From an uncultured Clostridium sp. (GTDB lineage Bacteria > Bacillota > Clostridia > TANB77 > CAG-508): a stretch of 64,000 nt of DNA. Positions 44,731 through 60,437 of this stretch are shown piece by piece (within the stretch, counting starts at the first letter, position 1; the number at the start of each line of letters is the position of its first letter). The position numbers were made by a program, and so were the translations under genes. The DNA lies in assembly GCA_947087745.1 (NCBI GenBank), contig CAMUDX010000004.1:307-64306 (forward strand), in the 5' to 3' direction. Under the pieces are notes generated by a model. That model searched no databases and was not told the DNA's origin. It worked only from the letters and a program-made list of their open reading frames with translations.

Positions 44731-45981
44731 TTATATAATATCTTCAAAGTAATTAATATAGTTGCTAAAGAACATATAAAAATAATCACTAATACTTCTT
44801 TTATCTATGGTAAATAAATTATAAAAATCAAGAGAAAATATAATTTTATTATCAACAATTATATCAACATTACCAATTTTAGAATCTTTGTAAAAAGGTG
44901 CATCAAAATTAAATGTTGCTGTGATATCAGTAGAAATGGTATCTATATTTTTATTCACGGGATAATAATCATAAGGCAATTCAGGCAAATACACATCAAT
45001 ATTTGAATTTGAACATTTATCCACATTAAATCTATTCAAATTATTAATCTTCCAATTTTCAAAATCCTTCATAATTGGCTCTTTGATATTCATCATTTTA
45101 AAATTACTAAAAGCATATTCTATAAGCTTTACACTATCTTGAGTTCTAAATTTTTTAGTATCAGCCCCCAAGACAACGCAAATAACATCTAAATCACCTC
45201 GTTTACATGATGAAACCAAACATCTATTAGCACCATTTGTAAAACCTGTTTTAACACCATAAACACCATTTAAATTACCCAATAATTCATTTGTTGAATG
45301 TATATTTTTAGGACTACCATTTATATAAACAGTATAATTCGAAGTGCCAACAAGTCTACAAAATGTTTCATTTTCTAAGGCATAGTTAGTTAATAAAGCA
45401 AGTTCGTATGCAGTAGTATGATGCTCATCATCATCTAAACCATGAGGAGTAACAAAGTGAGTGTTTGATAATCCCAAAAGTTTAGCCTTTTCATTCATTA
45501 AATTTGCGAAATTTTCTACACTACCACCAATATGTTCTGCTAAAGCAATAGCAGCATCGTTACCAGAGCACAACATCAATCCATATAGTAAATCATTCAC
45601 AGTAACTTTGCAATTTGTGGAAAGACCCAACCTAGATCCATGGATTCTAGCAGCTTTACTAGACACAGTTACAATATTTGATAAATTTTTTTCATTTTCT
45701 ATAACTATAATGGCAGTCATTATTTTAGTAGTAGAAGCCATTTTCCTAACATCTAATTCATTTTTACCAAATAAAATTGCACCAGTCGAACGTTCTATAA
45801 CAACAGCAGATCTGCAATTAATATTTGGCAGAGAAGAGACAGAAGAAGAAGTTACAATAGAATTAACATCTACAAAATCATCTATAGGCTCTATATAATC
45901 ATCTGCGAAACAACATGTTGGTAATATGGTTATAAGAGATAATAAAACAATAAAACAAATAATTTTTTTAGAAAAAAACAT
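44731..45981 (-). CDS. D-alanyl-D-alanine carboxypeptidase (peptidase S11), second paralog
   Basis: ASTTK, SGN and KTGFT motifs, with a signal peptide. The ATG at 45981 follows AGGTGA; the GTG at 45990 is an alternative start. Confidence 0.88.
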   Translation of the reverse strand: MFFSKKIICFIVLLSLITILPTCCFADDYIEPIDDFVDVNSIVTSSSVSSLPNINCRSAVVIERSTGAILFGKNELDVRKMASTTKIMTAIIVIENEKNLSNIVTVSSKAARIHGSRLGLSTNCKVTVNDLLYGLMLCSGNDAAIALAEHIGGSVENFANLMNEKAKLLGLSNTHFVTPHGLDDDEHHTTAYELALLTNYALENETFCRLVGTSNYTVYINGSPKNIHSTNELLGNLNGVYGVKTGFTNGANRCLVSSCKRGDLDVICVVLGADTKKFRTQDSVKLIEYAFSNFKMMNIKEPIMKDFENWKINNLNRFNVDKCSNSNIDVYLPELPYDYYPVNKNIDTISTDITATFNFDAPFYKDSKIGNVDIIVDNKIIFSLDFYNLFTIDKRSISDYFYMFFSNYINYFEDII

Positions 45982-46001
45982 AATAGTCACCTGTACAATT
46001 A

Positions 46002-46034
46002 TATGTCATAGGGACGTGTTTTTTGACACACTTT
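46002..46034 (-). promoter_or_regulatory. conserved leader motif, copy 2 (AAAAGTGTGTCAAAAAACACGTCCCTATGACATA on the minus strand), upstream of the dac gene
   Basis: See 27077..27111. It has the same orientation relative to its downstream gene and ends 20 nt before the ATG. Confidence 0.5.
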
Positions 46035-46216
46035 TAATATTTAATTTAAAATTTTTATAACAATGTATTTATACAATGGATTATATAATTCAAAATATAA
46101 AAGATATTTTGAAAACTTAATATTCTTCTGCACTAAAAGAGTATATAGGGATGACGTTCATATTACTAATCCGTAACATTAAAAGATTCGGAAAAAATCA
46201 CATAAACACTTGAAAA

Positions 46217-46266
46217 TGTAATGAAAATGTAATATAATTGTAATGCGTTTGTAATATTAATGTAAC
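46217..46266 (+). promoter_or_regulatory. array of five direct TGTAA(T/C) hexamers with exact 11-bp phasing (fits the WalR/OmpR-family half-site consensus TGTWAH-N5-TGTWAH)
   Basis: TGTAAT at 46217, 46228, 46239 and 46250, and TGTAAC at 46261. The array lies in the divergent intergenic region between the dac gene and the first adhesin gene. Confidence 0.55.
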
Positions 46267-46362
46267 ATTATAAAACGAATAAACTTTACAAGAAAATCAT
46301 AAATAATAAACTCTTATAAAAATAAAGAGCATAAAATAAATACTAATTAAGGAGAAGCGAAA

Positions 46363-49300
46363 ATGAAATTACAAAAATTAATACAAAAATTGATAGCAAG
46401 TTTGCTATTAACAATAATAGTAATTAATAATTTAGAAGGGTTAAAAATTGTAACTGATGCAATAACAATAAATAGTAAAGATGGAGATAACTTGCATCTG
46501 GGATTATCTGCTGTAGGAAATGGCATAGGATATGGAATAGACATGACATCAAGTGGAACTGAAGGGAAATACATATGGAATATAAAATCATATGAGACAG
46601 CTTCAGCAAGTAGTAATTCAGTGGTAACATCTAATTTATATTGTATAAAAGCAGGTTTTGGGTATACATGGGAGAACTTAAAACAACCAAATGCAGTATT
46701 AACATATGACCAATCAACATTTAATGAGAATACAGTAGATGGATATTATAATGAGATATTATGGATAATAGACCATATGTATATTCCACAAGAAGACAAT
46801 AAAGAAAAATTCTTAAAATCTATAGGAATTGAACTATATGAAGATGCAGAGTATAAGTTATATTACTACAATCCAGATTTAACACCAGAATATGATTATA
46901 CAGACTTATCAAGTGGAAACGAATATGCATATACACTAACAGATGATGACATAGTTGCAGTACAACAAGCAGTAATATGGTATTACACAAACTATAAAGT
47001 AAATCCATCAACATATGGAATATATAATAAATTAGGAAAGAACTCATCATGGCTAAAATACACAACAAATGGAACAAATTATTCCGAATTGAGTTCATTA
47101 AATAGAACATCAGGAGAGGGACCAGCAAGGAATGAATTTGCGACTATACTATATAATTACTTAATAGATGCTGCAACAAAAGAAGTAGCAAAAGCAGGAG
47201 GAACATATAAGTTAAAAAATAATACAGTAAAATTATGGACAGCAACAACATATGGAAATCAAGAACAACCAATAATAGAAGTACACAAAAAACAAAAGAT
47301 AGGAGAATATGATTTAATATTAGTAAAAGAAGATGAAAATGGAGAACAATTAAACAGTACAGCAACATTCATAGTAAATGATGTAGAAAAAGTAGTAACA
47401 GGGAAATTAACAGTAGCAAGTAAGGTGCAAATAACAGAAAGTAATTTAAATAGAACAGACACATATATAATAAAAGAAAAAATACCACCAGATGAATACT
47501 GCGAATTTAATGGAATAATAATGGTATCAGTAACAAAGAAAGAGACAGCAGATGGATATGAAGTAGACCAAGTAACATATGTAGTAAGAGATGAAGAGGG
47601 AAATGATATAACCCAAGAAATAGGAGATACAGTAAAAGTATATTTAAAAGATGGAAACATATATGTAAAAGTAAAAAACTACCCAGAAGAGAAAGCATTT
47701 GATTTAGCATTAAGAAAAGTAATAACACAAGTAAAAGATGCAGAAGGAAATATAAAAAGAATAGTAGATGCAAATGGAAACAGTGCTACAAGAAATGTAA
47801 CAGTAGATACAAGTACATTAAACAATGAAGATGACAATAGAAATACAGACACAGCAACATATAGACACAGAAAAGACCCAGTGCTAGTAGAAAAAGGAGA
47901 TAAAGTAAAATACACAATAACAATATACAATGAAGGAGAAGAAGCAGGATATGCAAGAAAAATAGTAGACCAATTACCAGGAACATGGGGAGCAGGACTA
48001 AGACTATTAAGTACAGCAGATGTAACATCAACAACAGGAAATGTATATGCAGTAGAATATAGTACAACAACAAATAAAGTAACATTCACATTAAAAAGTA
48101 CATCACCAAGAGAAATACCAGCATATAATGGAAAAACATTATCAAAAGAAACAATAGAATTAGAATGTGAAGTAATGGCAACAGCAGACAGGTCACAAAA
48201 CATGACATTAACGAATATAGCATATATAGCAGAAGAATACAATAGCAAAACAAATCAAGTAATTACAATAGAAGGAGACAGAGATTCACAGCCATCAAAA
48301 TACCCAACATATAATGGAGAAAATGATATAACACAAGATGGAATAACATATGGGGAAGACATAGGATATAAAGGACATAAGAGTAATTCATCTATTTTAT
48401 CACAAAACGATACATATTATAAAGGAGAAGAAGATGATGATGACTTTGAAAAAGTAGTAATATTACCAGAAGCAAAAGAATTTGATTTAGCATTAAGAAA
48501 ATTCATAACAGAAATAGAAGAAACAGGAGTAAACGAGAACAAGAAACCAAATGAAGAAATAACAAAAACGAAGGTAACAAGTAGAATACCAGAAGTAAGT
48601 TATAACAAAGAAACAAACCAAATAACATACACCCATAGCAAAGCCCCATTAGTAGTACATGTAGGAGACACAGTAATATATACAATAAGAGTATATAATG
48701 AGGGAGATATAGCAGGATATGCAACAGAAATAACAGATGATATACCAGAATATTTAGAATATTTACCAGAGCATGAGACAAATGAAAAATATGAATGGAA
48801 GATGTATGACAAAGAAGGAAAAGAAACGAAAGATGTAAGAAAAGCAGTAAAAATTAAGACAACACATCTAGCAAAAGGAGAAGGAGAAGAAAAAGGAGCG
48901 ATATTAGGAAGTAGCAAATATACAGCAAACTTAATAAAAGCATTTAATCCAAAAGCAGGAATAAGTGGGACAAATCCAGACTATAGAGACATAAAAGTAG
49001 CATTCAAAGTAAAAGACCCATCTTCATCAGAATATGTAATAACGAACTTTGTAGAGATATCAGAAGACAGTGATGAATACGGAGACCCAATAAAAGACAA
49101 AGATTCAATACCAGGAAATGGAGAAGGATATCCAAAAGAAGATGATGAAGACATAGAAAACATAAGAGTAGAATACTTCGATTTAGCATTATTAAAATAT
49201 GTAACAAAAGCAATAGTAACAGAAGAAGGAAAAGAAACAGTAATAGAGACAGGGAATATAGGAGACGAAAATGATATAATACCAAAAGTAGAAATAAACA

Positions 49301-49794
49301 GAAAGAAAATAAAACAAACAGTAGTAAAATTTGCATATACAATAAAAATAACAAACGAAGGAAATATAGCAGGATATGCAACAGAAATAACAGACTATAT
49401 ACCAGAGGGATTAGAATTTAAGAAAGAAGATAATGAAAACTGGGAAGATGAAGGAAACAGAGTAATATCAACAAGACAATTAGAGAAAGTGTTATTACAA
49501 CCAGGACAAAGTGCAGAAGTAGAAGTAGTACTAAGATGGGTAAATGAAGAGAATAATTTAGGATTAAAGAGAAACACAGCAGAAATATCAGAAGACTATA
49601 ATGAAAAAGGAATACCAGATAGAGATTCAACACCAGACAACCAAAAAGAAGGAGAAGATGATATAGACAATGCAGAAGTAATATTATCAATAAAAACAGG
49701 AGGAGAAGTAAACAGAATATACTATAGCTTAGGTATAGTAGTGTTATTAATAATATCAACAGGAATAGTGTTAATAAAGAAATATGTAATATAG
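46363..49794 (+). CDS. surface adhesin paralog A (1143 aa): signal peptide, thioester-domain (TED)-like head, SpaA/CnaB-like domain, DUF11-like repeats and a C-terminal TM anchor
   Basis: LYCIKAG (Cys94) and QQAVIWYYTN (Gln202) resemble the TED motifs [YFL]C-psi-[DNE] and TQxA-psi-W. Four repeated FDLALRK...Y(T/K)I.(I/V)(Y/T)NEG..AGYA..I.D..P modules are followed by D(R/K)DS.P(S/G/D) segments, and three end in (E/D)DD acidic motifs. The C-terminus is hydrophobic. Confidence 0.8.
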   Translation: MKLQKLIQKLIASLLLTIIVINNLEGLKIVTDAITINSKDGDNLHLGLSAVGNGIGYGIDMTSSGTEGKYIWNIKSYETASASSNSVVTSNLYCIKAGFGYTWENLKQPNAVLTYDQSTFNENTVDGYYNEILWIIDHMYIPQEDNKEKFLKSIGIELYEDAEYKLYYYNPDLTPEYDYTDLSSGNEYAYTLTDDDIVAVQQAVIWYYTNYKVNPSTYGIYNKLGKNSSWLKYTTNGTNYSELSSLNRTSGEGPARNEFATILYNYLIDAATKEVAKAGGTYKLKNNTVKLWTATTYGNQEQPIIEVHKKQKIGEYDLILVKEDENGEQLNSTATFIVNDVEKVVTGKLTVASKVQITESNLNRTDTYIIKEKIPPDEYCEFNGIIMVSVTKKETADGYEVDQVTYVVRDEEGNDITQEIGDTVKVYLKDGNIYVKVKNYPEEKAFDLALRKVITQVKDAEGNIKRIVDANGNSATRNVTVDTSTLNNEDDNRNTDTATYRHRKDPVLVEKGDKVKYTITIYNEGEEAGYARKIVDQLPGTWGAGLRLLSTADVTSTTGNVYAVEYSTTTNKVTFTLKSTSPREIPAYNGKTLSKETIELECEVMATADRSQNMTLTNIAYIAEEYNSKTNQVITIEGDRDSQPSKYPTYNGENDITQDGITYGEDIGYKGHKSNSSILSQNDTYYKGEEDDDDFEKVVILPEAKEFDLALRKFITEIEETGVNENKKPNEEITKTKVTSRIPEVSYNKETNQITYTHSKAPLVVHVGDTVIYTIRVYNEGDIAGYATEITDDIPEYLEYLPEHETNEKYEWKMYDKEGKETKDVRKAVKIKTTHLAKGEGEEKGAILGSSKYTANLIKAFNPKAGISGTNPDYRDIKVAFKVKDPSSSEYVITNFVEISEDSDEYGDPIKDKDSIPGNGEGYPKEDDEDIENIRVEYFDLALLKYVTKAIVTEEGKETVIETGNIGDENDIIPKVEINRKKIKQTVVKFAYTIKITNEGNIAGYATEITDYIPEGLEFKKEDNENWEDEGNRVISTRQLEKVLLQPGQSAEVEVVLRWVNEENNLGLKRNTAEISEDYNEKGIPDRDSTPDNQKEGEDDIDNAEVILSIKTGGEVNRIYYSLGIVVLLIISTGIVLIKKYVI

Positions 49795-49857
49795 CATGTG
49801 AGAAACAAATAGTAGATACTAAGAAGTATAAGGACAAATATATATTTTAAAAGTTAA

Positions 49858-49910
49858 AGCTAATTTTCAAGATTACGCAAAAATGCGCACATTTGAAAAT
49901 TAGCTATTTT
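49858..49910 (+). terminator. terminator hairpin after adhesin A (duplicated at 53752..53804)
   Basis: AGCTAATTTTCAA / TTGAAAATTAGCT form a perfect 13-bp stem with a 22-nt loop containing an inner GCGCA/TGCGC stem, followed by ATTTT. Confidence 0.55.
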
Positions 49911-49987
49911 ATTGAATAGAATACAATATAAAATTGTGAATTTAGAACAAAAAGAATGACAGTAATGTATGTATTTTTTAAAATTAA

Positions 49988-50031
49988 CTTATTCTCCAGT
50001 GAGCGGGAATTCCCGCTCACTGGAGAATAAG
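49988..50031. repeat. 44-bp perfect palindrome CTTATTCTCCAGTGAGCGGGAA|TTCCCGCTCACTGGAGAATAAG
   Basis: 22+22 nt with no mismatch. The GC-rich core is AGCGGGAATTCCCGCT. Confidence 0.95.
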
Positions 50032-50256
50032 AGGTTTTATAAAAATATATAGTAATGTAAGGAACACTCCCATAACACATGATACATAAAAGTAAAGAAA
50101 AAGTAAAGAAAATGTAATATAAAGAAAGAAATGCCTAAAAGGAACTTCCGTAAGTTGCTAATAAGCCATTAAGATTAATAAAGAAATCTATTAAAAATAG
50201 TATATTGACTAAGGAAAAATAAATAGTAAAATATAATTATAAGGAGAGATAATTAT

Positions 50257-53200
50257 ATGGAACTACAAAAAATACTAAAGAAATTAATAGCAAGTCTGCT
50301 ATTAACAATAATAATAATAGGACAAATGAGTGGTTTGCGATTTGAAACAGATGCAACAACTATAAGAAGTTCAGGAGAACATTTATATCTGGCTCTGTCT
50401 GCACTTAGACAAAGTGGAATGGGATATGGAATTGACATGGATGCAAATGGAACAACAGGAAAACAATTATGGGGAATTAGGTCGTATGAAACAGCTTCAG
50501 CGAGTAGTAATTCAGTTGTGGCATCTAACTTGTACTGTATAAAAGGATCATATGGGTACACTTGGGAAACTTTGGGTAGACCAACAGATGTGTTAACATA
50601 TAGTCAATCATCAGCAAATTTAAGTACAATAGTTCAATATGCAAATGAGTTATTATGGGTAGTAGATCATATGTATGTTCCAGGAGAAATAGATAAAAAC
50701 AAATTTTTAGAGCAAATAGGAATAGAATCATATGATGATTCAGGCAATAAGCTATATTACTACAATCCAGACTTAACACCAGGATATGATTATACAGACT
50801 TATCAAGTGGAAACGAATATGCATATACACTAACAGACGATGATATAATAGCTATACAACAAGCAGTAGTATGGTATTACACAAACTACAAAGTAGATTC
50901 ATCAACTTATGGAATATATAATAAATTAGGAAACAATAGTTCATGGTTAAAATATACAACAAATGGAACAAACTATTCAGAATTAAGTTCATTAAATAGA
51001 ACAACAGGGGAGGGACCAGCAAGGAATGAATTTGCGACTATACTATATAATTACTTAATAGATGCTGCAACAAAAGAAGTAGCAAAAGCAGGAGGAACAT
51101 ATAAGTTAAAAAATAATACAGTAAAATTATGGACAGCAACAACATATGGAAATCAAGAACAACCAATAATAGAAGTACACAAAAAACAAAAGATAGGAGA
51201 ATATGATTTAATATTAGTAAAAGAAGATGAAAATGGAGAACAATTAAACAGTACAGCAACATTCATAGTAAATGATGTAGAAAAAGTAGTAACAGGGAAA
51301 TTAACAGTAGCAAGTAAGGTGCAAATAACAGAAAGTAATTTAAATAGAACAGACACATATATAATAAAAGAAAAAATACCACCAGATGAATACTGCGAAT
51401 TTAATGGAATAATAATGGTATCAGTAACAAAGAAAGAGACAGCAGATGGATATGAAGTAGACCAAGTAACATATGTAGTAAGAGATGAAGAGGGAAATGA
51501 TATAACCCAAGAAATAGGAGATACAGTAAAAGTATATTTAAAAGATGGAAACATATATGTAAAAGTAAAAAACTACCCAGAAGAGAAAGCATTTGATTTA
51601 GCATTAAGAAAAGTAATAACACAAGTAAAAGATGCAGAAGGAAATATAAAAAGAATAGTAGATGCAAATGGAAACAGTGCTACAAGAAATGTAACAGTAG
51701 ATACAAGTACATTAAACAATGAAGATGACAATAGAAATACAGACACAGCAACATATAGACACAGAAAAGACCCAGTGCTAGTAGAAAAAGGAGATAAAGT
51801 AAAATACACAATAACAATATACAATGAAGGAGAAGAAGCAGGATATGCAAGAAAAATAGTAGACCAATTACCAGGAACATGGGGAGCAGGACTAAGACTA
51901 TTAAGTACAGCAGATGTAACATCAACAACAGGAAATGTATATGCAGTAGAATATAGTACAACAACAAATAAAGTAACATTCACATTAAAAAGTACATCAC
52001 CAAGAGAAATACCAGCATATAATGGAAAAACATTATCAAAAGAAACAATAGAATTAGAATGTGAAGTAATGGCAACAGCAGACAGGTCACAAAACATGAC
52101 ATTAACGAATATAGCATATATAGCAGAAGAATACAATAGCAAAACAAATCAAGTAATTACAATAGAAGGAGACAGAGATTCACAGCCATCAAAATACCCA
52201 ACATATAATGGAGAAAATGATATAACACAAGATGGAATAACATATGGGGAAGACATAGGATATAAAGGACATAAGAGTAATTCATCTATTTTATCACAAA
52301 ACGATACATATTATAAAGGAGAAGAAGATGATGATGACTTTGAAAAAGTAGTAATATTACCAGAAGCAAAAGAATTTGATTTAGCATTAAGAAAATTCAT
52401 AACAGAAATAGAAGAAACAGGAGTAAACGAGAACAAGAAACCAAATGAAGAAATAACAAAAACGAAGGTAACAAGTAGAATACCAGAAGTAAGTTATAAC
52501 AAAGAAACAAACCAAATAACATACACCCATAGCAAAGCCCCATTAGTAGTACATGTAGGAGACACAGTAATATATACAATAAGAGTATATAATGAGGGAG
52601 ATATAGCAGGATATGCAACAGAAATAACAGATGATATACCAGAATATTTAGAATATTTACCAGAGCATGAGACAAATGAAAAATATGAATGGAAGATGTA
52701 TGACAAAGAAGGAAAAGAAACGAAAGATGTAAGAAAAGCAGTAAAAATTAAGACAACACATCTAGCAAAAGGAGAAGGAGAAGAAAAAGGAGCGATATTA
52801 GGAAGTAGCAAATATACAGCAAACTTAATAAAAGCATTTAATCCAAAAGCAGGAATAAGTGGGACAAATCCAGACTATAGAGACATAAAAGTAGCATTCA
52901 AAGTAAAAGACCCATCTTCATCAGAATATGTAATAACGAACTTTGTAGAGATATCAGAAGACAGTGATGAATACGGAGACCCAATAAAAGACAAAGATTC
53001 AATACCAGGAAATGGAGAAGGATATCCAAAAGAAGATGATGAAGACATAGAAAACATAAGAGTAGAATACTTCGATTTAGCATTATTAAAATATGTAACA
53101 AAAGCAATAGTAACAGAAGAAGGAAAAGAAACAGTAATAGAGACAGGGAATATAGGAGACGAAAATGATATAATACCAAAAGTAGAAATAAACAGAAAGA

Positions 53201-53688
53201 AAATAAAACAAACAGTAGTAAAATTTGCATATACAATAAAAATAACAAACGAAGGAAATATAGCAGGATATGCAACAGAAATAACAGACTATATACCAGA
53301 GGGATTAGAATTTAAGAAAGAAGATAATGAAAACTGGGAAGATGAAGGAAACAGAGTAATATCAACAAGACAATTAGAGAAAGTGTTATTACAACCAGGA
53401 CAAAGTGCAGAAGTAGAAGTAGTACTAAGATGGGTAAATGAAGAGAATAATTTAGGATTAAAGAGAAACACAGCAGAAATATCAGAAGACTATAATGAAA
53501 AAGGAATACCAGATAGAGATTCAACACCAGACAACCAAAAAGAAGGAGAAGATGATATAGACAATGCAGAAGTAATATTATCAATAAAAACAGGAGGAGA
53601 AGTAAACAGAATATACTATAGCTTAGGTATAGTAGTGTTATTAATAATATCAACAGGAATAGTGTTAATAAAGAAATATGTAATATAG
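50257..53688 (+). CDS. surface adhesin paralog B (1143 aa). The TED-like head is diverged from A. From codon 252 onward it is identical to A.
   Basis: It has the same motifs (LYCIKGS, QQAVVWYYTN). By eye the first ~251 aa are about two-thirds to three-quarters identical to A. The remainder is identical. Confidence 0.8.
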   Translation: MELQKILKKLIASLLLTIIIIGQMSGLRFETDATTIRSSGEHLYLALSALRQSGMGYGIDMDANGTTGKQLWGIRSYETASASSNSVVASNLYCIKGSYGYTWETLGRPTDVLTYSQSSANLSTIVQYANELLWVVDHMYVPGEIDKNKFLEQIGIESYDDSGNKLYYYNPDLTPGYDYTDLSSGNEYAYTLTDDDIIAIQQAVVWYYTNYKVDSSTYGIYNKLGNNSSWLKYTTNGTNYSELSSLNRTTGEGPARNEFATILYNYLIDAATKEVAKAGGTYKLKNNTVKLWTATTYGNQEQPIIEVHKKQKIGEYDLILVKEDENGEQLNSTATFIVNDVEKVVTGKLTVASKVQITESNLNRTDTYIIKEKIPPDEYCEFNGIIMVSVTKKETADGYEVDQVTYVVRDEEGNDITQEIGDTVKVYLKDGNIYVKVKNYPEEKAFDLALRKVITQVKDAEGNIKRIVDANGNSATRNVTVDTSTLNNEDDNRNTDTATYRHRKDPVLVEKGDKVKYTITIYNEGEEAGYARKIVDQLPGTWGAGLRLLSTADVTSTTGNVYAVEYSTTTNKVTFTLKSTSPREIPAYNGKTLSKETIELECEVMATADRSQNMTLTNIAYIAEEYNSKTNQVITIEGDRDSQPSKYPTYNGENDITQDGITYGEDIGYKGHKSNSSILSQNDTYYKGEEDDDDFEKVVILPEAKEFDLALRKFITEIEETGVNENKKPNEEITKTKVTSRIPEVSYNKETNQITYTHSKAPLVVHVGDTVIYTIRVYNEGDIAGYATEITDDIPEYLEYLPEHETNEKYEWKMYDKEGKETKDVRKAVKIKTTHLAKGEGEEKGAILGSSKYTANLIKAFNPKAGISGTNPDYRDIKVAFKVKDPSSSEYVITNFVEISEDSDEYGDPIKDKDSIPGNGEGYPKEDDEDIENIRVEYFDLALLKYVTKAIVTEEGKETVIETGNIGDENDIIPKVEINRKKIKQTVVKFAYTIKITNEGNIAGYATEITDYIPEGLEFKKEDNENWEDEGNRVISTRQLEKVLLQPGQSAEVEVVLRWVNEENNLGLKRNTAEISEDYNEKGIPDRDSTPDNQKEGEDDIDNAEVILSIKTGGEVNRIYYSLGIVVLLIISTGIVLIKKYVI

Positions 53689-53751
53689 CATGTGAGAAAC
53701 AAATAGTAGATACTAAGAAGTATAAGGACAAATATATATTTTAAAAGTTAA

Positions 53752-53804
53752 AGCTAATTTTCAAGATTACGCAAAAATGCGCACATTTGAAAATTAGCTA
53801 TTTT
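53752..53804 (+). terminator. terminator hairpin after adhesin B (duplicate of 49858..49910)
   Basis: Identical sequence at offset 3894. Confidence 0.55.
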
Positions 53805-53881
53805 ATTGAATAGAATACAATATAAAATTGTGAATTTAGAACAAAAAGAATGACAGTAATGTATGTATTTTTTAAAATTAA

Positions 53882-53925
53882 CTTATTCTCCAGTGAGCGG
53901 GAATTCCCGCTCACTGGAGAATAAG
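53882..53925. repeat. 44-bp perfect palindrome (duplicate of 49988..50031)
   Basis: Identical sequence inside the duplicated block. Confidence 0.95.
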
Positions 53926-54138
53926 AGGTTTTATAAAAATATATAGTAATGTAAGGAACACTCCCATAACACATGATACATAAAAGTAAAGAAAAAGTAA
54001 AGAAAATGTAATAACAAAAAGCAAATGCTAGAAATAAATATCCGTAAGAGCTACAAAGTAATGGAAAAACCTGTGAAAAACAACATATTGACTATAAATA
54101 AAGAAAGTGTAAAATATATATTATAAGGAGAGAAAAGT

Positions 54139-56877
54139 ATGGAACTACAAAAGATAATGCGAAAATTTATAGTCAGTTTAATATTATCTATGCTAGTTAT
54201 ATGTCAGGTAGAATTTAATTTAAGTTCAAACGGTACAAATGCAAATAAAGGACAAGAAACACAACAAGACGAAGAACAACGTACACAGCAAAAAGTACAA
54301 AGCCAACAAAACCAACAGACCATAGAGCTAGACAATGAATTCAATTTAGCATTAAGAAAAGTAATAACACAATTAAAAGACAAAGAAGGAAACACAAAAG
54401 AAATAGTAAATGAAATAAAACAAACAGCAAAAAGAAACGTAGTAGTAAATAAAGAGAATGAAGAATTAATATATAGACATAGAAAAGACCCTGTATTAGT
54501 AGAAAAAGGAGATATTGTTATATATACAATAACAATATATAACCAAGGGAAAGAAGAAGGATATGCAACAAAAATTGTAGACCAACTACCAGGGACACCA
54601 ATGACAGGATTACGATTATTAAATACAAAAGAAGTAAAATCAACAACAGGAAACATATACACATTGGAATATAGTACAGCCACAAATACAGCAACATTTA
54701 CACTAAAAAGCACAAGTCCAAAAGCTATACCAGCATTTAATGGAAGACAATTATCAAAAGAAGAAATAATATTAGAATGCCAAGTAATGGCAGATATAAA
54801 TACCAGAGAATCAACAATATTAACAAATATAGCATATATAGAAGAAGCATATAACAAAAAGACAAATGAAGCAGTAATAATGTATGAGAATAATGACTTG
54901 CAAGGATTGACATCTCCTATATATCAAAATGAGGATGACACAAAGCAAGATGGAATAACATATGGAGATGATATAGGATATATAGGGAATACAGATAACT
55001 TAACAGATTTATCTCAAAGCAAAACATATTATAAAGGACAAAAAGATTGCGATGACTTTGAAAAGTTAATAATATCACCAAAATTATTTGATTTAAGCTT
55101 AAGACAAGTAGTAACAGAGATAGATGGAATACCAACAGAAGAAAATAGAAAAATAACAATAACAGGATTAGAAGATTTACAAGAGGAAAATTCAATAGTA
55201 ACAACAGCACAGTATAATCATGTAAAAACACCTATAGTTGTAAAAAATGGAAGTAAAGTAACATATAACATAAATATATATAATGAAGCATCAATAGATG
55301 GAACAGCAAGTATAGTAAAAAGTCAATTACCAATAGGCTTAGAACTAAATGTATCTAAATTATCAACACAATTAATAGATGGAAAGACACAATATTATAT
55401 AATTACAGAAAAGGGAAATAAATACATAGTACAATATGATGAGGCGAAAAATAATATAACTTTTAAGTTAGATACAACTATTGAAATTGCAAATATAGAG
55501 GCATTTAGTGCAAGAAAAACACTAGACTTTGATACATTGGAATTTGAATGTATAGTACAATGTGTAGCTGATGAAGAACAAAATACATATCTAACAAGTA
55601 TATCATATATATATGAACAACAGAAGGCAGATGGAACAATAATAACAGACCAAAAGGGTGAAGATAGAGATTCAGAGCCACATACAATATCAATAAAAAC
55701 AGCTAAGGAACTAAAAACAATAAATGATATAGGATATATAGGAAACATAGAAAATACAAGTGATTTAGAACAAGAAGAAACATATTACAAAGGAGAACAA
55801 GATGATGATGACTTTGAAAAACTAGTAATATTACCACAAGTATTTGATTTAAAGCTAATTCAATATGTAGATAAAATAAATAAAAAAGATGTAGGAGAAA
55901 GACTAATAAAAGTAGATACATCTAAGTTAAATACAACAGACGCAACAGGGAAAAAGATAACGACAGCAGAGTATGAAATGGAAAAAAATCCAGTATCCGC
56001 AAAAAGCCTAGACTTTGTAAAATATACATTTAGAGTATACAATGAAGGAGATTATGATGGATATGTAGAAGAGATATCAAGCAATATACCAGAAGGATTA
56101 GAAGCTTTAATGATAGGAAAAGATTCATCAAACAACATAATAATATATAGTTGGGATGGAATACTATTAAAAGATGTAACAGAAGAAATAAAAGCAACAG
56201 ACATGTATGATATAGTAATTGATACAAATAGTATATGGGGATATAATGCAAACAATTCAATAATAAAAACAACAAACTTAAAAGAAGAATTGATAAAAGC
56301 ATTTGGAAATAAAGATTATGAGGATTATGCAGACAAAGAGAATAAAATAGATTATAAAGAAACATCAGTAATATTTAGAGTAAAAGAAGAAATAACTTCA
56401 AGCGAAAAGACAATAGTAGTTGAATCAGCAATAACATCAGAAAAGGCAGTAAATCAAAATGGAGAAGAAGTAATAGATTTAGAAGGAAATAAAATAAAAG
56501 ATAGAGATTCAGATTGTGACCAATGGAAAAGAGAATATTCAGATTCAGTTTATAATAAAGACCAATGGAAAATATATAAAGAAGATGATGAAGACTATGA
56601 TAATATTGTAGTACAAGAGTTTGATTTTAAAGTAAGTCAATCTGTAGCAGAAGAGGAAGAAATTAATGAGCCACCAACAGTATATGTAGGAAATATAGAT
56701 AAATACACAACAGGATTATATGGTGAAGAAGAAACAGAAGATGATATTGATATTGCAGAGAATACAATATCAACAAAGACAGACGAAAGAATAAGAAAAA
56801 TATATGTTGTTTTAATATTAGTATCATGTATTATAATTATAGTTGGAGTAATTTTAATAAAAATATTTATATTATAA
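54139..56877 (+). CDS. surface protein paralog C (912 aa): signal peptide, Q-rich linker, DUF11-like repeats and a C-terminal TM anchor; no TED-like head
   Basis: The signal peptide MELQKIMRKF... and the upstream region are homologous to paralog B. FNLALRK/FDLSLRQ/FDLKLIQ modules are present. The LYCI and QQAV.W motifs are absent. Confidence 0.75.
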   Translation: MELQKIMRKFIVSLILSMLVICQVEFNLSSNGTNANKGQETQQDEEQRTQQKVQSQQNQQTIELDNEFNLALRKVITQLKDKEGNTKEIVNEIKQTAKRNVVVNKENEELIYRHRKDPVLVEKGDIVIYTITIYNQGKEEGYATKIVDQLPGTPMTGLRLLNTKEVKSTTGNIYTLEYSTATNTATFTLKSTSPKAIPAFNGRQLSKEEIILECQVMADINTRESTILTNIAYIEEAYNKKTNEAVIMYENNDLQGLTSPIYQNEDDTKQDGITYGDDIGYIGNTDNLTDLSQSKTYYKGQKDCDDFEKLIISPKLFDLSLRQVVTEIDGIPTEENRKITITGLEDLQEENSIVTTAQYNHVKTPIVVKNGSKVTYNINIYNEASIDGTASIVKSQLPIGLELNVSKLSTQLIDGKTQYYIITEKGNKYIVQYDEAKNNITFKLDTTIEIANIEAFSARKTLDFDTLEFECIVQCVADEEQNTYLTSISYIYEQQKADGTIITDQKGEDRDSEPHTISIKTAKELKTINDIGYIGNIENTSDLEQEETYYKGEQDDDDFEKLVILPQVFDLKLIQYVDKINKKDVGERLIKVDTSKLNTTDATGKKITTAEYEMEKNPVSAKSLDFVKYTFRVYNEGDYDGYVEEISSNIPEGLEALMIGKDSSNNIIIYSWDGILLKDVTEEIKATDMYDIVIDTNSIWGYNANNSIIKTTNLKEELIKAFGNKDYEDYADKENKIDYKETSVIFRVKEEITSSEKTIVVESAITSEKAVNQNGEEVIDLEGNKIKDRDSDCDQWKREYSDSVYNKDQWKIYKEDDEDYDNIVVQEFDFKVSQSVAEEEEINEPPTVYVGNIDKYTTGLYGEEETEDDIDIAENTISTKTDERIRKIYVVLILVSCIIIIVGVILIKIFIL

Positions 56878-56938
56878 TAAAAATATGTCTACCTTTTCAT
56901 ATGGAAAAAAATACTTTTCTTTGAAGCCAAAAATCTAA

Positions 56939-56967
56939 TTGACTACAAAAAAGTGTTATGCTATAAT
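56939..56967 (+). promoter_or_regulatory. sigmaA-type promoter (TTGACT-17 bp-TGcTATAAT)
   Basis: Hexamers at 56939-56944 and 56962-56967 with an extended -10 TG, about 80 bp upstream of the 57048 start. Confidence 0.55.
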
Positions 56968-57047
56968 CTAAAATGAAAGATAAAAAATATAAAGGTTTAT
57001 AGGCAAAACCTTAGAAAAACCTAAATATGTGATATAAGGTGGAACAA

Positions 57048-57734
57048 ATGAATCAAATTTTATATACAGGGAAAAACAAAAGCAAAACAGATGTAAGTAA
57101 AGTATTAAAAGTATTCACAGCGATATTGGTAATATTTGCTATATGCTTTATAGCATTGGGAATATACCTATACAATGGAACAAGACCACAAGAAGAGATT
57201 GTAAATAATAAACCAGAGCCAGAGCCAAAAGTAGAATCAAAAATAGATATAGCATTCTCATCAATTGCAGATGGAGTAAGGATAAAAATAAAAAGTAATT
57301 TACAAGTAACAAGTGCCACATATAGATGGGATGATGAGCCAGAAAATACTATAGACATAGGTAGCAACCTAAATGAGATTATAAAAGAAATAGCAATAAA
57401 ACAGGGAATACATAAACTATATGTTACAGTAGTAGATGAAGAAGGAAATACACAAACAAAAGAGCAACCAGTAATAGGTGATAAAGAGCCAGATTTAGTA
57501 ATAACAACAGATGGAGTAAATAATTTTATAATACAAGCAAAAGATGACGAGAGTTTATCAAGAATAAAAATTGTTTTAAATGACGAAGTAATATTAGAGC
57601 AAGAATTAAATACAGCAACATTTGAATACAAAGTAGAAATACCACAAGGAGATAGTGTAATAGAAGCAACTGTTTATAATTTGAATGATTTAGTAAGCAC
57701 TAAGAAGGGAAGAATAACAGGATTTTCTAGATAA
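57048..57734 (+). CDS. membrane-anchored hypothetical protein (228 aa) with a beta-rich extracellular part
   Basis: ORF with RBS AAGGTGG and one N-terminal TM helix. Confidence 0.6.
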   Translation: MNQILYTGKNKSKTDVSKVLKVFTAILVIFAICFIALGIYLYNGTRPQEEIVNNKPEPEPKVESKIDIAFSSIADGVRIKIKSNLQVTSATYRWDDEPENTIDIGSNLNEIIKEIAIKQGIHKLYVTVVDEEGNTQTKEQPVIGDKEPDLVITTDGVNNFIIQAKDDESLSRIKIVLNDEVILEQELNTATFEYKVEIPQGDSVIEATVYNLNDLVSTKKGRITGFSR

Positions 57735-57826
57735 GAATAATGAGATAGGAGCATTAAATATGTTCCTTTCATTCATAATCACACAAAGGCTAGATAAATC
57801 AAAATAAATTAAGAAATGGAGAGAAT

Positions 57827-58780
57827 ATGTTACAAGAAATATATATTATCGATGATGATGATTCTTCGATTGCAGTATTTAGAGAACTATTCAAAAATGA
57901 AGAAAATTATAAATTTACAAATATAAAATCAGAACAAATAGATATAGCATTAAAAAATATACCGTCATTAATAATTATAAATGAAGATGCGATACAAAGA
58001 GATATAATAGAATTATGCCATCAGATAAGACAAGATGAAGACAATACAATAACACCAGTTATAGTAGTCTCATCCAATAAAGAAAAAGAACACAGAATAA
58101 AGATATTAAATGAATCAATAGAATATTATATCAGAAAACCCGTAGATGAAGACTATTTGTTTTATACAATAAAAAATTTAGGTAGATTATTATCAATAAA
58201 CAGAACAATAAGTCCACTAACAGGATTGCCAGGAAATGTACAGATACATGCTGAACTAAAAAAGAGATTATCAAATAAAGAAGAATTTGCAGTATTGTAT
58301 TTAGATTTAGATAATTTTAAACCATACAATGATGTATATGGATTCTTAAAAGGAGATCAAGTAATACAGTATACTGCAGAAGTAATATTAAGCAGTATAC
58401 ATAGCAATGATACTAAAAACAATAAAAGTAGCAATAGTTTTGTTGGGCACATAGGTGGAGATGATTTTTTAGCTATAGTACCATATGTAGATGTTGATGA
58501 ATTATGCCAAATAATAATAGGAACTTTCGATAAAGGAATAAAGAACTTTTTTAGTAAAGAAGATTTAGAAAAAGGATATATAGAAAGCGAGAACAGAAAG
58601 GGAAATATAGAAATATTTCCAATAACAGGAATTTCAATAGGAGTAGTTATTGCAGAAAAGGATAGATTCACTAATATACTAGAGATTTCTGAAGTAGGTA
58701 CACAGGTAAAACATTTAGCAAAATCAATACAAGGAAGTAGTTATGCAATAGACAGAAGAAAACATAATAGATCAGTATAA
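57827..58780 (+). CDS. response-regulator receiver domain fused to a GGDEF-type domain with a variant GGDDF motif
   Basis: REC-like N-terminus (IIDDDD..., VVSS, IRKP). PLTGLPGN...LDLDNFKPYNDVYGFLKGDQV...GHIGGDDFLAIV is the GGDEF fold. Confidence 0.75.
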   Translation: MLQEIYIIDDDDSSIAVFRELFKNEENYKFTNIKSEQIDIALKNIPSLIIINEDAIQRDIIELCHQIRQDEDNTITPVIVVSSNKEKEHRIKILNESIEYYIRKPVDEDYLFYTIKNLGRLLSINRTISPLTGLPGNVQIHAELKKRLSNKEEFAVLYLDLDNFKPYNDVYGFLKGDQVIQYTAEVILSSIHSNDTKNNKSSNSFVGHIGGDDFLAIVPYVDVDELCQIIIGTFDKGIKNFFSKEDLEKGYIESENRKGNIEIFPITGISIGVVIAEKDRFTNILEISEVGTQVKHLAKSIQGSSYAIDRRKHNRSV

Positions 58781-60367: not shown

Positions 60368-60437
60368 TTTTTTATTTTAGCTTTTTTTCTAGTCAGCGGG
60401 AATTCCCGCTGACTAGAAAAAAAGCTAAAATAAAAAA
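60368..60437. repeat. 70-bp perfect palindrome with the same AGCGGGAATTCCCGCT core as 49988..50031
   Basis: 35+35 nt checked base by base, with no mismatch. The centre lies between 60402 and 60403. Confidence 0.95.

What the first reader, a model, noticed from the sequence alone, without database searches (positions are those of the whole stretch)
46363..54013. Tandem adhesin paralogs with divergent heads but a 3-kb perfectly identical stalk and spacer
Genes A (46363..49794) and B (50257..53688) are both 1143 codons long and lie 3,894 bp apart.

The first ~750 nt have no indels but many substitutions, both synonymous and non-synonymous. From 47116/51010 onward the sequences are identical for 3,004 bp, running through the stop codon, the terminator, the 44-bp palindrome and into the spacer. 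They diverge again at 50120/54014.

A sharp switch from about 25% divergence to 0% implies recent gene conversion or unequal crossing-over that homogenises the stalk while the head stays diverged. That would be expected if the two heads have different binding specificities.

Such long identical repeats are also an assembly hazard and a substrate for copy-number change.
Basis: seen in the sequence. Interest (0 to 1): 0.7.

Follow-up and report, generated by a model that had tools for sequence, protein, structure and literature searches.

The report
Gene-converted tandem thioester adhesin genes
Two neighbouring genes for covalent-binding (thioester-domain) surface adhesins in an uncultured gut Clostridia bacterium keep anciently different tips, but one gene's stalk was recently overwritten by the other's; this is a clear but ordinary case of gene conversion between adhesin paralogs.

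Summary
Genes A (46363-49794) and B (50257-53688) are both 1143 codons long and lie 3894 bp apart. They are identical over 47116-50119 = 51010-54013 (3004 bp).

Both are fibrillar adhesins. Each has an N-terminal thioester domain (TED), a stalk of CLIPPER/DUF11 repeats, and a C-terminal tail like an LPXTG anchor. A third paralog, C (54139-56877), has no TED.

Gene conversion is supported by conflicting phylogenies:
- Head A (codons 1-165) is 93% and 73-76% identical to heads at the same position in other MAGs, but only 60% identical to head B.
- The shared stalk is of the A type, so A most likely overwrote B.

The switch is stepwise, not sharp: 32% nucleotide divergence (codons 1-165), then 10% (codons 166-251), then 0. 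The breakpoint lies inside the TED, not at the head/stalk boundary.

Head dN/dS is 0.40 overall (up to 0.71 locally), so the divergence is not mostly synonymous, but positive selection is not shown either.

The same 3' homogenisation recurs in other tandem arrays of this family.

Caveat: all assemblies of this locus look like short-read assemblies, so exact identity and copy number are unverified.

This is a new member of a known kind, of modest interest.

The parts
46210..46238 (+). Promoter-like site of gene A (TTGAAA-17-TATAAT). It is overlapped by five TGTAA(T/C) motifs at 11-bp spacing (46217-46266).
   Evidence: consensus match only
46363..49794 (+). Gene A, a 1143-aa TED-CLIPPER fibrillar adhesin. 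It is the likely donor of the converted tract.
46363..46857 (+). Deeply diverged part of head A (codons 1-165): signal peptide and the N-terminal half of the TED, including Cys94 (46642-46644) in YCIK. It differs from B at 31.7% of nt, with dS 0.73 and omega 0.48.
46858..47115 (+). Intermediate zone of A (codons 166-251, including Q201 and W206 of the TQXA-like motif). It differs from B at 10.1% of nt, with dS 0.37 and omega 0.14. This is the trace of an older conversion.
47116..50119 (+). Copy 1 of the 3004-bp identical tract. It holds the C-terminal part of the TED (including candidate bond-forming Gln302, 47266-47268), an unassigned domain (residues about 311-445), three CLIPPER/DUF11 modules (residues 446-705, 706-944, 945 to about 1100), the sorting-like tail, the stop codon, the terminator hairpin at 49858-49905, the palindrome at 49988-50031, and 88 further nt.
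50120..50256 (+). Unique promoter and 5'UTR of gene B (TTGACT-16-TAAAAT at 50205-50232). It is homologous to the region upstream of B-type genes in relatives and paralogous to the promoter of C.
50257..53688 (+). Gene B, a 1143-aa TED-CLIPPER adhesin. It is the likely recipient of the converted tract.
50257..50751 (+). Deeply diverged part of head B (codons 1-165). This is a B-type head lineage: 64% aa identity to P0002 and 60% to P0005.
50752..51009 (+). Intermediate zone of B (codons 166-251).
51010..54013 (+). Copy 2 of the 3004-bp identical tract, including the terminator hairpin at 53752-53799 and the palindrome at 53882-53925.
54014..54138 (+). Promoter and 5'UTR of gene C (TTGACT-16-TAAAAT at 54088-54115).
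54139..56877 (+). Gene C, a 912-aa third paralog. It has a similar signal peptide, a Gln-rich N-terminus in place of a TED, CLIPPER/DUF11 modules and a TM tail. It is not part of the recent conversion: in the repeat families that extend into C, C's copies are 61-85% nt identical to the A/B or reference copy.

Best explanation
A, B and C form a chromosomal tandem array of surface-adhesin genes in an uncultured, low-GC (29%) gut Clostridia bacterium. Each gene has its own promoter-like site, and A and B are each followed by the terminator hairpin that lies inside the identical tract.

A and B encode fibrillar adhesins of the TIE type. Each has a signal peptide, an N-terminal thioester domain (TED), a stalk of one unassigned domain plus three CLIPPER/DUF11 modules (a family described as CnaA-like isopeptide domains), and a C-terminal tripartite sorting signal (LSIKTG, a hydrophobic helix, and a KK tail). 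In characterised homologs the TED forms an internal Cys-Gln thioester and reacts covalently with a host ligand.

The two head lineages are older than the species. Each has relatives in the corresponding position in other MAGs.

In this lineage a RecA-type, non-reciprocal recombination copied 3.0 kb from A into B. The copied segment runs from the middle of the TED, through the whole stalk and anchor, to 326 nt past the stop codon. It replaced B's own stalk, which in relatives is longer and of the B type.

The tract ends where homology runs out on both sides. On the 5' side this is the roughly 32%-diverged N-terminal half of the TED. On the 3' side it is the diverged promoters of B and C.

An older conversion, since re-diverged to 10%, reached codon 166.

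Shown here: the mosaic structure, the domain identities, the incongruent phylogenies, the synteny, and the recurrence in the family.

Inferred: the RecA mechanism, the A-to-B direction, thioester and isopeptide formation, sortase anchoring, and different ligand specificities of the two heads.

Protein identity:
- Pfam TED scores 26.1 bits against a cutoff of 22 for A.
- CLIPPER/DUF11 scores 44.6-47.4 bits against 24.6, and TIGR01451 scores 66 bits against 24.
- A homolog is named by NCBI 'Cys-Gln thioester bond-forming surface protein'.
- The AF2 model of head A has pLDDT 91.9. The 16 best PDB fold matches are all thioester domains (4C0Z, 5A0L, 5DCQ, 5A0G), with probability up to 1.0.
- Cys94, Gln201 and Trp206 are conserved in 97-99% of 110 heads, and Gln302 in at least 90% of alignment A2.
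- The C-terminal tail scores 16.8 bits against TIGR01167 (cutoff 15.9).

Conversion:
- Over codons 1-165, A is 92.5% nt (93% aa) identical to L038 and 73-76% aa identical to P0003/P0004, but 60% aa identical to B.
- B is 64% identical to P0002.
- Over residues 252-445, A equals B (100%) while both are 81-82% identical to P0003/P0004.
- The stalk is closer to A-type orthologs (77-82%) than to B-type orthologs (68-76%).
- The repeat portion of A is 95.4% identical to the A-type gene in L038, against 93.9% for the flanks.
- B-type orthologs are 1861 and 1614 aa and A-type orthologs are 1400 and 1397 aa. Here both genes are 1143 aa.

Synteny:
- A-type genes follow the PBP5 gene. B-type genes directly precede the C-type gene and a GGDEF regulator.
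- The promoter of B is homologous to the region upstream of B-type genes in relatives.

Independent assemblies:
- L001 and L002 come from two other samples. They are 99.88% identical to the window and carry the same 3004-bp repeat and the same junctions.

Recurrence in the family:
- In L034 the last 1350 nt of genes g1 and g2 are 98.1% identical, whereas g1 is 86.8% identical to its ortholog in the HiFi circular MAG L023.
- Perfect runs of 1085 bp (L015) and 653 bp (L012) lie in the 3' parts of other tandem pairs.
- P0004 and P0005, from one genome, are 85% identical over residues 252-445, against 78% for the orthologs P0004/P0003.
Against: - No reads were available. The contig names ('scaffold_96', 'NODE_...') suggest that all assemblies of this locus are short-read metagenome assemblies. 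Resolving a simple de Bruijn loop would print the collapsed repeat twice, so exact identity and a copy number of exactly two are not established.
- The two strains differ at 18 events in the 13.6 kb of unique sequence but at none in the 6 kb of repeat. Depending on how the cluster in gene C is treated, p is about 0.001 to 0.03. This fits either a very recent or ongoing conversion, or hidden collapse.
- The A-to-B direction rests on modest identity differences and on only 345 nt of L038.
- The 326-nt spacer does not resemble the sequence downstream of A-type genes in relatives. It weakly resembles the sequence downstream of B-type genes (54 nt at 74%). The history of the spacer is therefore unresolved.
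- The head of B scores 19.0 bits against Pfam TED, below the cutoff of 22.
- Profile and sequence searches of the PDB found nothing.
- TM-scores to solved TEDs are only 0.45-0.57.
Confidence: 0.8

Rival explanations
1. Assembly artefact. The two stalks are only similar, or the copy number differs, and a short-read assembler collapsed them into one graph node and printed it twice. In the extreme version, heads A and B are alleles from two strains that were chained into a false tandem.
For: - The repeat (3 kb) is much longer than a short-read insert.
- There are no differences between strains in either copy, despite 18 events in the flanks.
- A related contig stops 345 nt into the repeat.
- Head B occurs as an orphan 757-bp contig in a third sample.
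Against: - The repeat is followed by two different unique sequences (50120... and 54014...) and preceded by two different heads. The B promoter joins the end of the repeat, not the upstream PBP5 gene, so a two-allele bubble does not fit.
- Relatives carry both an A-type and a B-type gene at the corresponding positions.
- The same structure appears in three assemblies.
- Other short-read MAGs keep 98%-identical paralog tracts distinct.
- A HiFi circular MAG shows real tandem arrays of this family.
- This rival can at most blur identity from about 99% to 100%, or hide extra copies.
Confidence: 0.1
2. Recent duplication of a whole gene unit, followed by replacement of one head through import of a foreign or allelic head (head swapping) rather than stalk conversion.
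For: - The end product would look the same.
- Head B is a long branch (at most 64% identical to any head found).
- Head B has a somewhat higher GC content: 33.3% against 28.3% for head A.
Against: - Head B comes with its own promoter region. That region is homologous to the one upstream of B-type genes in two relatives and sits in the same place, directly before the C-type gene.
- Head A likewise sits in its syntenic place.
- Both heads are therefore in their expected positions, and it is the stalk that differs from the relatives in type and length.
- The intermediate zone (10% divergence, with L038 matching A at 13 informative sites and B at 10) indicates repeated A/B exchange, not one import.
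Confidence: 0.07
3. The identity is kept by strong purifying selection on the stalk after an old duplication, with no recombination.
For: Stalk and anchor modules are conserved across the family.
Against: - Synonymous sites and 326 nt of non-coding spacer are also identical.
- Orthologous stalks differ by 18-32% at the protein level.
Confidence: 0.01

Closest known systems
Helicobacter pylori babA/babB/babC adhesin paralogs (RecA-dependent intragenomic gene conversion; review PMC5483490)
   Same: These are paralogous adhesin genes with extensive homology outside the binding region and a divergent ligand-binding part. Non-reciprocal recombination between paralogs creates chimeras and homogenised segments.
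   Different: The bab genes encode Gram-negative outer-membrane proteins at dispersed loci. Their 5' and 3' ends are conserved around a divergent middle, and they also show CT-repeat phase variation. Here the genes encode Gram-positive-type wall adhesins in direct tandem, only the 5' roughly 500-750 nt stay diverged, and no phase-variable repeat was seen.
TIE proteins (thioester-isopeptide-ester adhesins): S. pyogenes SfbI and Cpa, C. perfringens CpTIE, B. anthracis BaTIE (PMC4450167, PMC6194298)
   Same: They share an N-terminal TED displayed on a stalk of cross-linked Ig-like domains, with a C-terminal sorting signal. They also share the [YFL]C-phi-zeta Cys motif and the Gln/Trp helix motif. 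Solved TEDs are the only significant fold matches.
   Different: Sequence identity to solved TEDs is only 10-13%, and the domain is about 285 aa against 175-205 aa. The stalk is made of CLIPPER/DUF11 (CnaA-like) modules rather than CnaB or ester domains. The sorting motif is LSIKTG, not LPXTG. No biochemistry exists for this clade.
CLIPPER (DUF11) stalk domains of fibrillar adhesins (PMC12617251; PDB 9IFR)
   Same: Tandem PF01345/TIGR01451 modules lie between an adhesive head and an anchor. This is the architecture that paper describes for fibrillar adhesins, which includes TED heads.
   Different: The modules here are long (about 240-260 aa per unit, with inserts) and only about 30-41% identical to each other. 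Whether each carries the Lys-Asn isopeptide was not tested.
Concerted evolution of prokaryotic paralogs in general (for example PMC6053082)
   Same: Paralogs within a genome are more alike than orthologs between genomes over a defined tract.
   Different: Here the pattern is partial (a mosaic gene), very recent, and includes non-coding spacer.

Membership tests
Thioester domain (TED) adhesins / TIE proteins | Match to the Pfam TED model PF08341 at or above the gathering score | tested here: met
   A scores 26.1 bits against a cutoff of 22, so the feature is met. B scores 19.0 bits, below the cutoff, but is 78% identical to A over residues 25-320.
Thioester domain (TED) adhesins / TIE proteins | Bond-forming Cys in a [YFL]C-phi-zeta motif (PMC6194298) | tested here: met
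   Both A and B have YCIK with Cys94. The Cys is conserved in 99% of 110 homologous heads and is invariant in alignment A2.
Thioester domain (TED) adhesins / TIE proteins | TQXX-phi-W helix motif next to the thioester | tested here: met
   A has VQQAVIW and B has IQQAVVW. Gln201 is 97% conserved and Trp206 99%. The motif lies on a predicted long helix (residues 194-211). The Thr is replaced by Val or Ile, and the spacing is one residue longer.
Thioester domain (TED) adhesins / TIE proteins | [quoted passage not shown] | tested here: inconclusive
   The candidate is Gln302 in EQPIIEV, just before the last predicted strand. It is at least 90% conserved in alignment A2, but only 30% conserved in another alignment of 110 heads, where a subgroup has Gly-Pro there. 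No model coordinates were available to measure the Cys-Gln distance.
Thioester domain (TED) adhesins / TIE proteins | TED fold | tested here: met
   The AF2 model has pLDDT 91.9 and pTM 0.91. The 16 best Foldseek matches in the PDB are all TEDs (Cpa 4C0Z, SfbI 5A0L, FNE 5DCQ, CpTIE 5A0G). The best E-value is 6e-4, probability 0.63-1.0, and TM-score 0.38-0.57 normalised to the target. The next hits have E > 1.
Thioester domain (TED) adhesins / TIE proteins | An actual internal thioester (a 17-Da mass loss) and covalent ligand capture | not testable with these tools
   This needs mass spectrometry of the recombinant head and binding assays.
CLIPPER/DUF11 fibrillar-adhesin stalk | PF01345 / TIGR01451 repeats between head and anchor | tested here: met
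   PF01345 scores 44.6 bits (A) and 47.4 bits (B) against a cutoff of 24.6, in 3 stretches. TIGR01451 scores 66 bits against 24. The internal repeat periods are 768 and 657 nt.
CLIPPER/DUF11 fibrillar-adhesin stalk | Intramolecular Lys-Asn isopeptide with a catalytic Asp | not tested
   Motifs that could fit this are visible (FDLALRK..., YNEG, TN.A.I). No structural or Isopeptor-type test was run.
Sortase-anchored (LPXTG) wall proteins | LPXTG pentapeptide | tested here: not met
   The motif is LSIKTG. Of 122 homologs, 112 have a T-G motif here, nearly all of the form L[SA][IV]xTG, and 10 have no T-G motif, those seen reading LS[VIA](N/A)QGGG.
Sortase-anchored (LPXTG) wall proteins | Hydrophobic helix plus basic tail after the motif, with a match to TIGR01167 | tested here: met
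   TIGR01167 scores 16.8 bits against a cutoff of 15.9 on the last 48 aa of A, which is marginal. The match starts at model position 4, the TG. No sortase gene lies in the window.
Interparalog gene conversion (concerted evolution) | [quoted passage not shown] | tested here: met
   Over codons 1-165, A is 92.5% identical to L038 and 68.3% to B at the nucleotide level. In the tract, A is 100% identical to B and 95.4% to L038.
Interparalog gene conversion (concerted evolution) | The two copies are physically present and identical in the genome (read-level proof) | not testable with these tools
   Only assemblies were available. Three concordant assemblies exist, but all may share the same limitation.

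The most novel reading that the evidence does not exclude
Homogenising the 3' stalk while keeping the heads apart is not a one-off. It may be a family-wide property of tandem thioester-adhesin arrays in gut Clostridia. Under this reading, a shared stalk-and-anchor 'chassis' is kept recombination-competent so that different covalent warheads (TED heads with different specificity loops) can be swapped, duplicated or popped out at high frequency. This would amount to a cassette system for varying host or glycan targets in commensals.
Probability: 0.15. Interest if true: 0.55.

Novelty: new member of a known kind. Interest (0 to 1): 0.3.

Why it matters
It documents a clean example of partial concerted evolution in covalent (thioester) adhesins of uncultured gut Clostridia, and the pattern recurs across the family. 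No such case was found in the searched literature.

In practical terms, the 3-kb direct repeats flanking head B are a substrate for RecA-mediated loss or amplification of B, and they are a known cause of MAG fragmentation or mis-assembly. Gene counts and adhesin repertoires from short-read MAGs of this clade will therefore be unreliable.

Biologically, two TED heads differ mainly around the first predicted strand and the following loop, the region where the literature places a hypothetical specificity loop. Mounted on an identical stalk, they form a natural matched pair for testing what determines TED ligand choice.

Tried and rejected
- megablast of 45000-58000 against the plasmid and phage collections found no match. 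The locus is chromosomal: neighbours include rpoC, PBPs, minDE, rodA and hydrogenase genes.
- Sequence (phmmer) and profile searches of the PDB found no hit.
- The first AF2 run, with a 13-sequence alignment, failed (pLDDT 37). A 55-sequence alignment gave pLDDT 91.9.
- An exact look-up of protein A in the gene-position index found nothing on record, although the sequence is in the protein collection as P0128, from a 66,004-bp contig.
- A search for a 31-mer from the repeat in the JGI metagenome contigs found no match.
- A homolog search with head B alone returned only 6 proteins. The best, P0121, turned out to be an A-type head.
- Unequal crossing-over as the sole mechanism was considered and rejected. 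One crossover between the stalks of A and B gives either a single chimera (loss of head B) or a three-gene product, not two genes with an identical 3' part.
- Positive selection on the heads was considered. Nei-Gojobori omega is 0.40 overall and at most 0.71 locally, so no support was found. A pairwise test is weak, however.
- The origin of the 326-nt spacer was examined. It does not match the sequence downstream of A-type genes in relatives and matches the sequence downstream of B-type genes only weakly. This is left unresolved.

Full report
**Observation**

- A is 46363..49794 and B is 50257..53688. Both are 1143 codons long.
- The longest exact run is 47116-50119 = 51010-54013, which is 3004 bp.
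- Nothing comparable exists elsewhere in the window; the next longest exact repeat is 208 bp.

The run covers:
- the 3' 2.7 kb of the genes;
- the stop codon;
- a terminator hairpin at 49858-49905 (-19.7 kcal/mol, z = -4.9);
- the 44-bp palindrome at 49988-50031 (20-bp stem, -41.8 kcal/mol, z = -11);
- 88 further nt.

The first 753 nt align without gaps. 183 nt and 79 aa differ.

Two refinements apply.
- First, the transition is stepwise: 31.7% nucleotide differences in codons 1-165, 10.1% in codons 166-251, then zero. Fisher tests give p = 9e-12 and p = 7e-30.
- Second, a third paralog, C (54139-56877, 912 aa), follows directly. Its promoter region is paralogous to that of B.

**What the genes encode**

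- Pfam finds the thioester domain (TED, PF08341) in the head. A scores 26.1 bits against a cutoff of 22; B scores 19.0 bits.
- Pfam and NCBIfam find CLIPPER/DUF11 repeats in the stalk.
- DUF11 was recently renamed CLIPPER and shown to be a CnaA-like isopeptide domain that forms stalks of fibrillar adhesins (PMC12617251).
- NCBI names close homologs 'Cys-Gln thioester bond-forming surface protein'.
- Both heads carry YCIK, which fits the [YFL]C-phi-zeta Cys motif. They also carry (V/I)QQAV(I/V)W, a TQXX-phi-W-like motif as defined in PMC6194298.
- Cys94, Gln201 and Trp206 are 97-99% conserved in 110 homologous heads. A candidate bond-forming Gln302 (EQPII) is at least 90% conserved in one alignment but not in another.
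- An AF2 model of residues 25-320 of A built with 55 homologs has pLDDT 91.9. Its 16 best PDB fold matches are all thioester domains (Cpa, SfbI, FNE, CpTIE), and no other fold reaches E < 1.
- The last 48 residues (LSIKTG, a hydrophobic helix, KKYVI) marginally match the LPXTG-anchor model: 16.8 bits against a cutoff of 15.9. Of 122 homologs, 112 have a T-G motif at this position, nearly all of the form L[SA][IV]xTG.
- No sortase gene lies in the window.
- Gene C has a Gln-rich N-terminus in place of a TED.
- The context is chromosomal: LytR-CpsA-Psr, two PBP5 genes, comEA, a GGDEF regulator, an amidase, minDE and rodA.
- The nearest genomes are uncultured gut Clostridia MAGs.

**Is it gene conversion?**

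The decisive test is phylogenetic incongruence.
- Over codons 1-165, head A is 93% aa (92.5% nt) identical to the gene at the same position in GCA_022794615.1 (L038). It is 73-76% identical to P0003/P0004 in two further MAGs, but only 60% identical to B.
- B is closest to P0002 and P0005 (64% and 60%). Those proteins share B's signal-peptide type (MELQ...).

Synteny agrees.
- A-type genes follow the second PBP5 gene.
- B-type genes directly precede the C-type gene, a 230-aa ORF and the GGDEF regulator.
- The promoter of B is homologous to the region upstream of B-type genes in relatives.
- So both heads are old and in their expected positions.

By contrast, from codon 252 onward A equals B.
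- This shared stalk is closer to A-type orthologs (77-82%) than to B-type orthologs (68-76%).
- The first 345 nt of the tract are 95.4% identical to the A-type gene of L038, against 93.9% for the flanks.
- B-type orthologs are much longer (1861 and 1614 aa).

The simplest history is that A's 3' 3 kb overwrote B's.

In the intermediate zone (codons 166-251), A, B and L038 are about equidistant. L038 matches A at 13 informative sites and B at 10. This indicates an older A/B exchange at about the time of that split.

The tract ends where homology ends on both sides. No selection is therefore needed to explain why the head escapes conversion.

**Head divergence**

- Nei-Gojobori counts give 119 non-synonymous and 64 synonymous differences. 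Omega is 0.40 overall.
- By segment, omega is 0.71 (codons 31-80), 0.27 (81-130), 0.67 (131-165) and 0.14 (166-251).
- dS is 0.73 for codons 1-165.
- Mapped on the model, the most changed block is residues 36-55: the first predicted strand (7 of 7 residues differ) and the loop after it (5 of 6 differ).
- If that strand is beta-strand A, this loop is the A-B loop that the TED literature calls a hypothetical 'specificity loop' (PMC6194298). This is an inference.
- The thioester Cys lies in the diverged part and is conserved in both heads. The Gln/Trp helix motif lies in the intermediate zone and is conserved in both. The candidate bond-forming Gln302 lies in the identical tract.

**Recurrence in the family**

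Tandem arrays of these genes are common in related MAGs.
- In L034 the last 1350 nt of genes g1 and g2 are 98.1% identical. L034 g1 is only 86.8% identical to its ortholog in the HiFi circular MAG OZ006973.1 (L023), where g1 and g2 are 87.7% identical. This is a second, independent conversion of a 3' part after the two lineages split.
- Other tandem pairs contain perfect 3' runs of 1085 bp (L015) and 653 bp (L012) behind heads of 57-81% identity.
- The A-type and B-type proteins of one MAG (P0004, P0005) are 85% identical over residues 252-445, against 78% for the orthologs P0004/P0003.

**Is it real or an assembly product?**

Evidence that the tandem is real:
- Protein B is found exactly in two other metagenome assemblies (L001 and L002, from two samples). 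These are identical to each other and 99.88% identical to the window, with the same A-R-B-R-C order and the same 3004-bp repeat.
- The repeat has two different unique continuations and two different unique predecessors. The B promoter joins the end of the repeat. A two-strain bubble therefore does not explain the structure.
- The window contains no Ns.

Evidence for caution:
- The contig names suggest short-read assemblies.
- A related contig stops 345 nt into the repeat.
- Head B appears alone on a 757-bp contig in a third sample.
- The two strains differ at 18 events in the unique 13.6 kb but at none in the 6 kb of repeat.

A graph-loop traversal would print a collapsed consensus twice. 'Perfectly identical' and 'exactly two copies' therefore remain unverified. 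Near-identity and the tandem order are well supported.

**Comparison and verdict**

- Mechanistically, the closest known case is intragenomic, RecA-dependent gene conversion among the H. pylori babA/B/C adhesin paralogs, which have conserved ends and a divergent binding region (PMC5483490).
- In protein type, these are TIE/TED fibrillar adhesins (PMC4450167, PMC6194298) with CLIPPER stalks (PMC12617251).
- I found no paper linking bacterial TED adhesins with gene conversion. The phenomenon is nonetheless standard for surface-protein families.

This is a real, well-delimited and correctly interpreted feature. It is a new member of a known kind and of modest interest.

Noticed in passing
window 46217-46266: Five TGTAA(T/C) motifs sit at exactly 11-bp spacing (46217, 46228, 46239, 46250, 46261). 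They overlap the promoter-like site of gene A. A single TGTAAT forms almost the last bases of the identical tract upstream of the B and C promoters (50113, 54007). This may be a phased regulator-binding array.
   Followed up: partly
window 49988-50031, 53882-53925, 60368-60437: A palindromic element with the same 16-bp core, AGCGGGAATTCCCGCT, occurs three times; 0.01 occurrences are expected by chance. The third copy lies after the amidase gene. Its arms differ from the other two but are still perfectly complementary (33-bp stem, -49 kcal/mol). This suggests a conserved hairpin, such as a bidirectional terminator or REP-like element, or a binding site for a dimeric protein.
   Followed up: partly
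window 54139-56877 (gene C) vs L001 10102-12834: Half of all differences between the two strains in 19.6 kb fall in gene C: 8 SNPs, 7 of them non-synonymous, plus a 6-nt in-frame indel at 56742-56747. This could reflect diversifying selection, relaxed constraint, or an imported segment.
   Followed up: partly
L003/L004 (CAOKXF010000010.1) and L036/L037 (GCA_022794195.1): In two related MAGs the A-type and B-type genes are not adjacent. In CAOKXF01 they lie about 30 kb apart on one contig, with giant surface-protein ORFs of 2037 and 3067 aa in the sequenced ends of the gap. In GCA_022794195.1 they lie on separate contigs, and the B-type gene is preceded by a giant RCC1/Big_2 gene of at least 4861 aa. 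The window lineage either lost such genes or never had them.
   Followed up: partly
L034 vs L023 (OZ006973.1, HiFi circular MAG); L015; L012: Other tandem TED-adhesin arrays show independent 3' conversion tracts. In L034, paralogs are 98.1% identical over 1350 nt against 86.8% for orthologs. L015 has a perfect run of 1085 bp and L012 one of 653 bp.
   Followed up: yes
window 34883-36055 and 36036-40373: A Big_13 ORF (390 aa) and a MucBP ORF (1445 aa) overlap by 20 nt on the same strand. They may be one giant adhesin gene split by a frameshift or a sequencing error. The first ORF also contains a 208-bp exact internal repeat at 35686-35893.
   Followed up: no
window 50257-50751 vs 46363-46857: The diverged part of head B has 33.3% GC. 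Head A has 28.3% and the window as a whole 29.2%.
   Followed up: no
C-termini of 122 homologs (P0001-P0120): The family has a conserved non-canonical sorting-like signal: GEDDID.A.V(I/L)L(S/A)(I/V)xTG, followed by a TM helix and (I/L)IKK(F/Y)V. Ten members have no T-G motif there; those seen read LS[VIA](N/A)QGGG instead.
   Followed up: partly
window 9823-15335 and 19071-20630: A 1591-aa protein with NPCBM, F5/8-type-C and dockerin domains lies next to a cohesin-domain protein. A large serine recombinase gene lies a few kb downstream.
   Followed up: no
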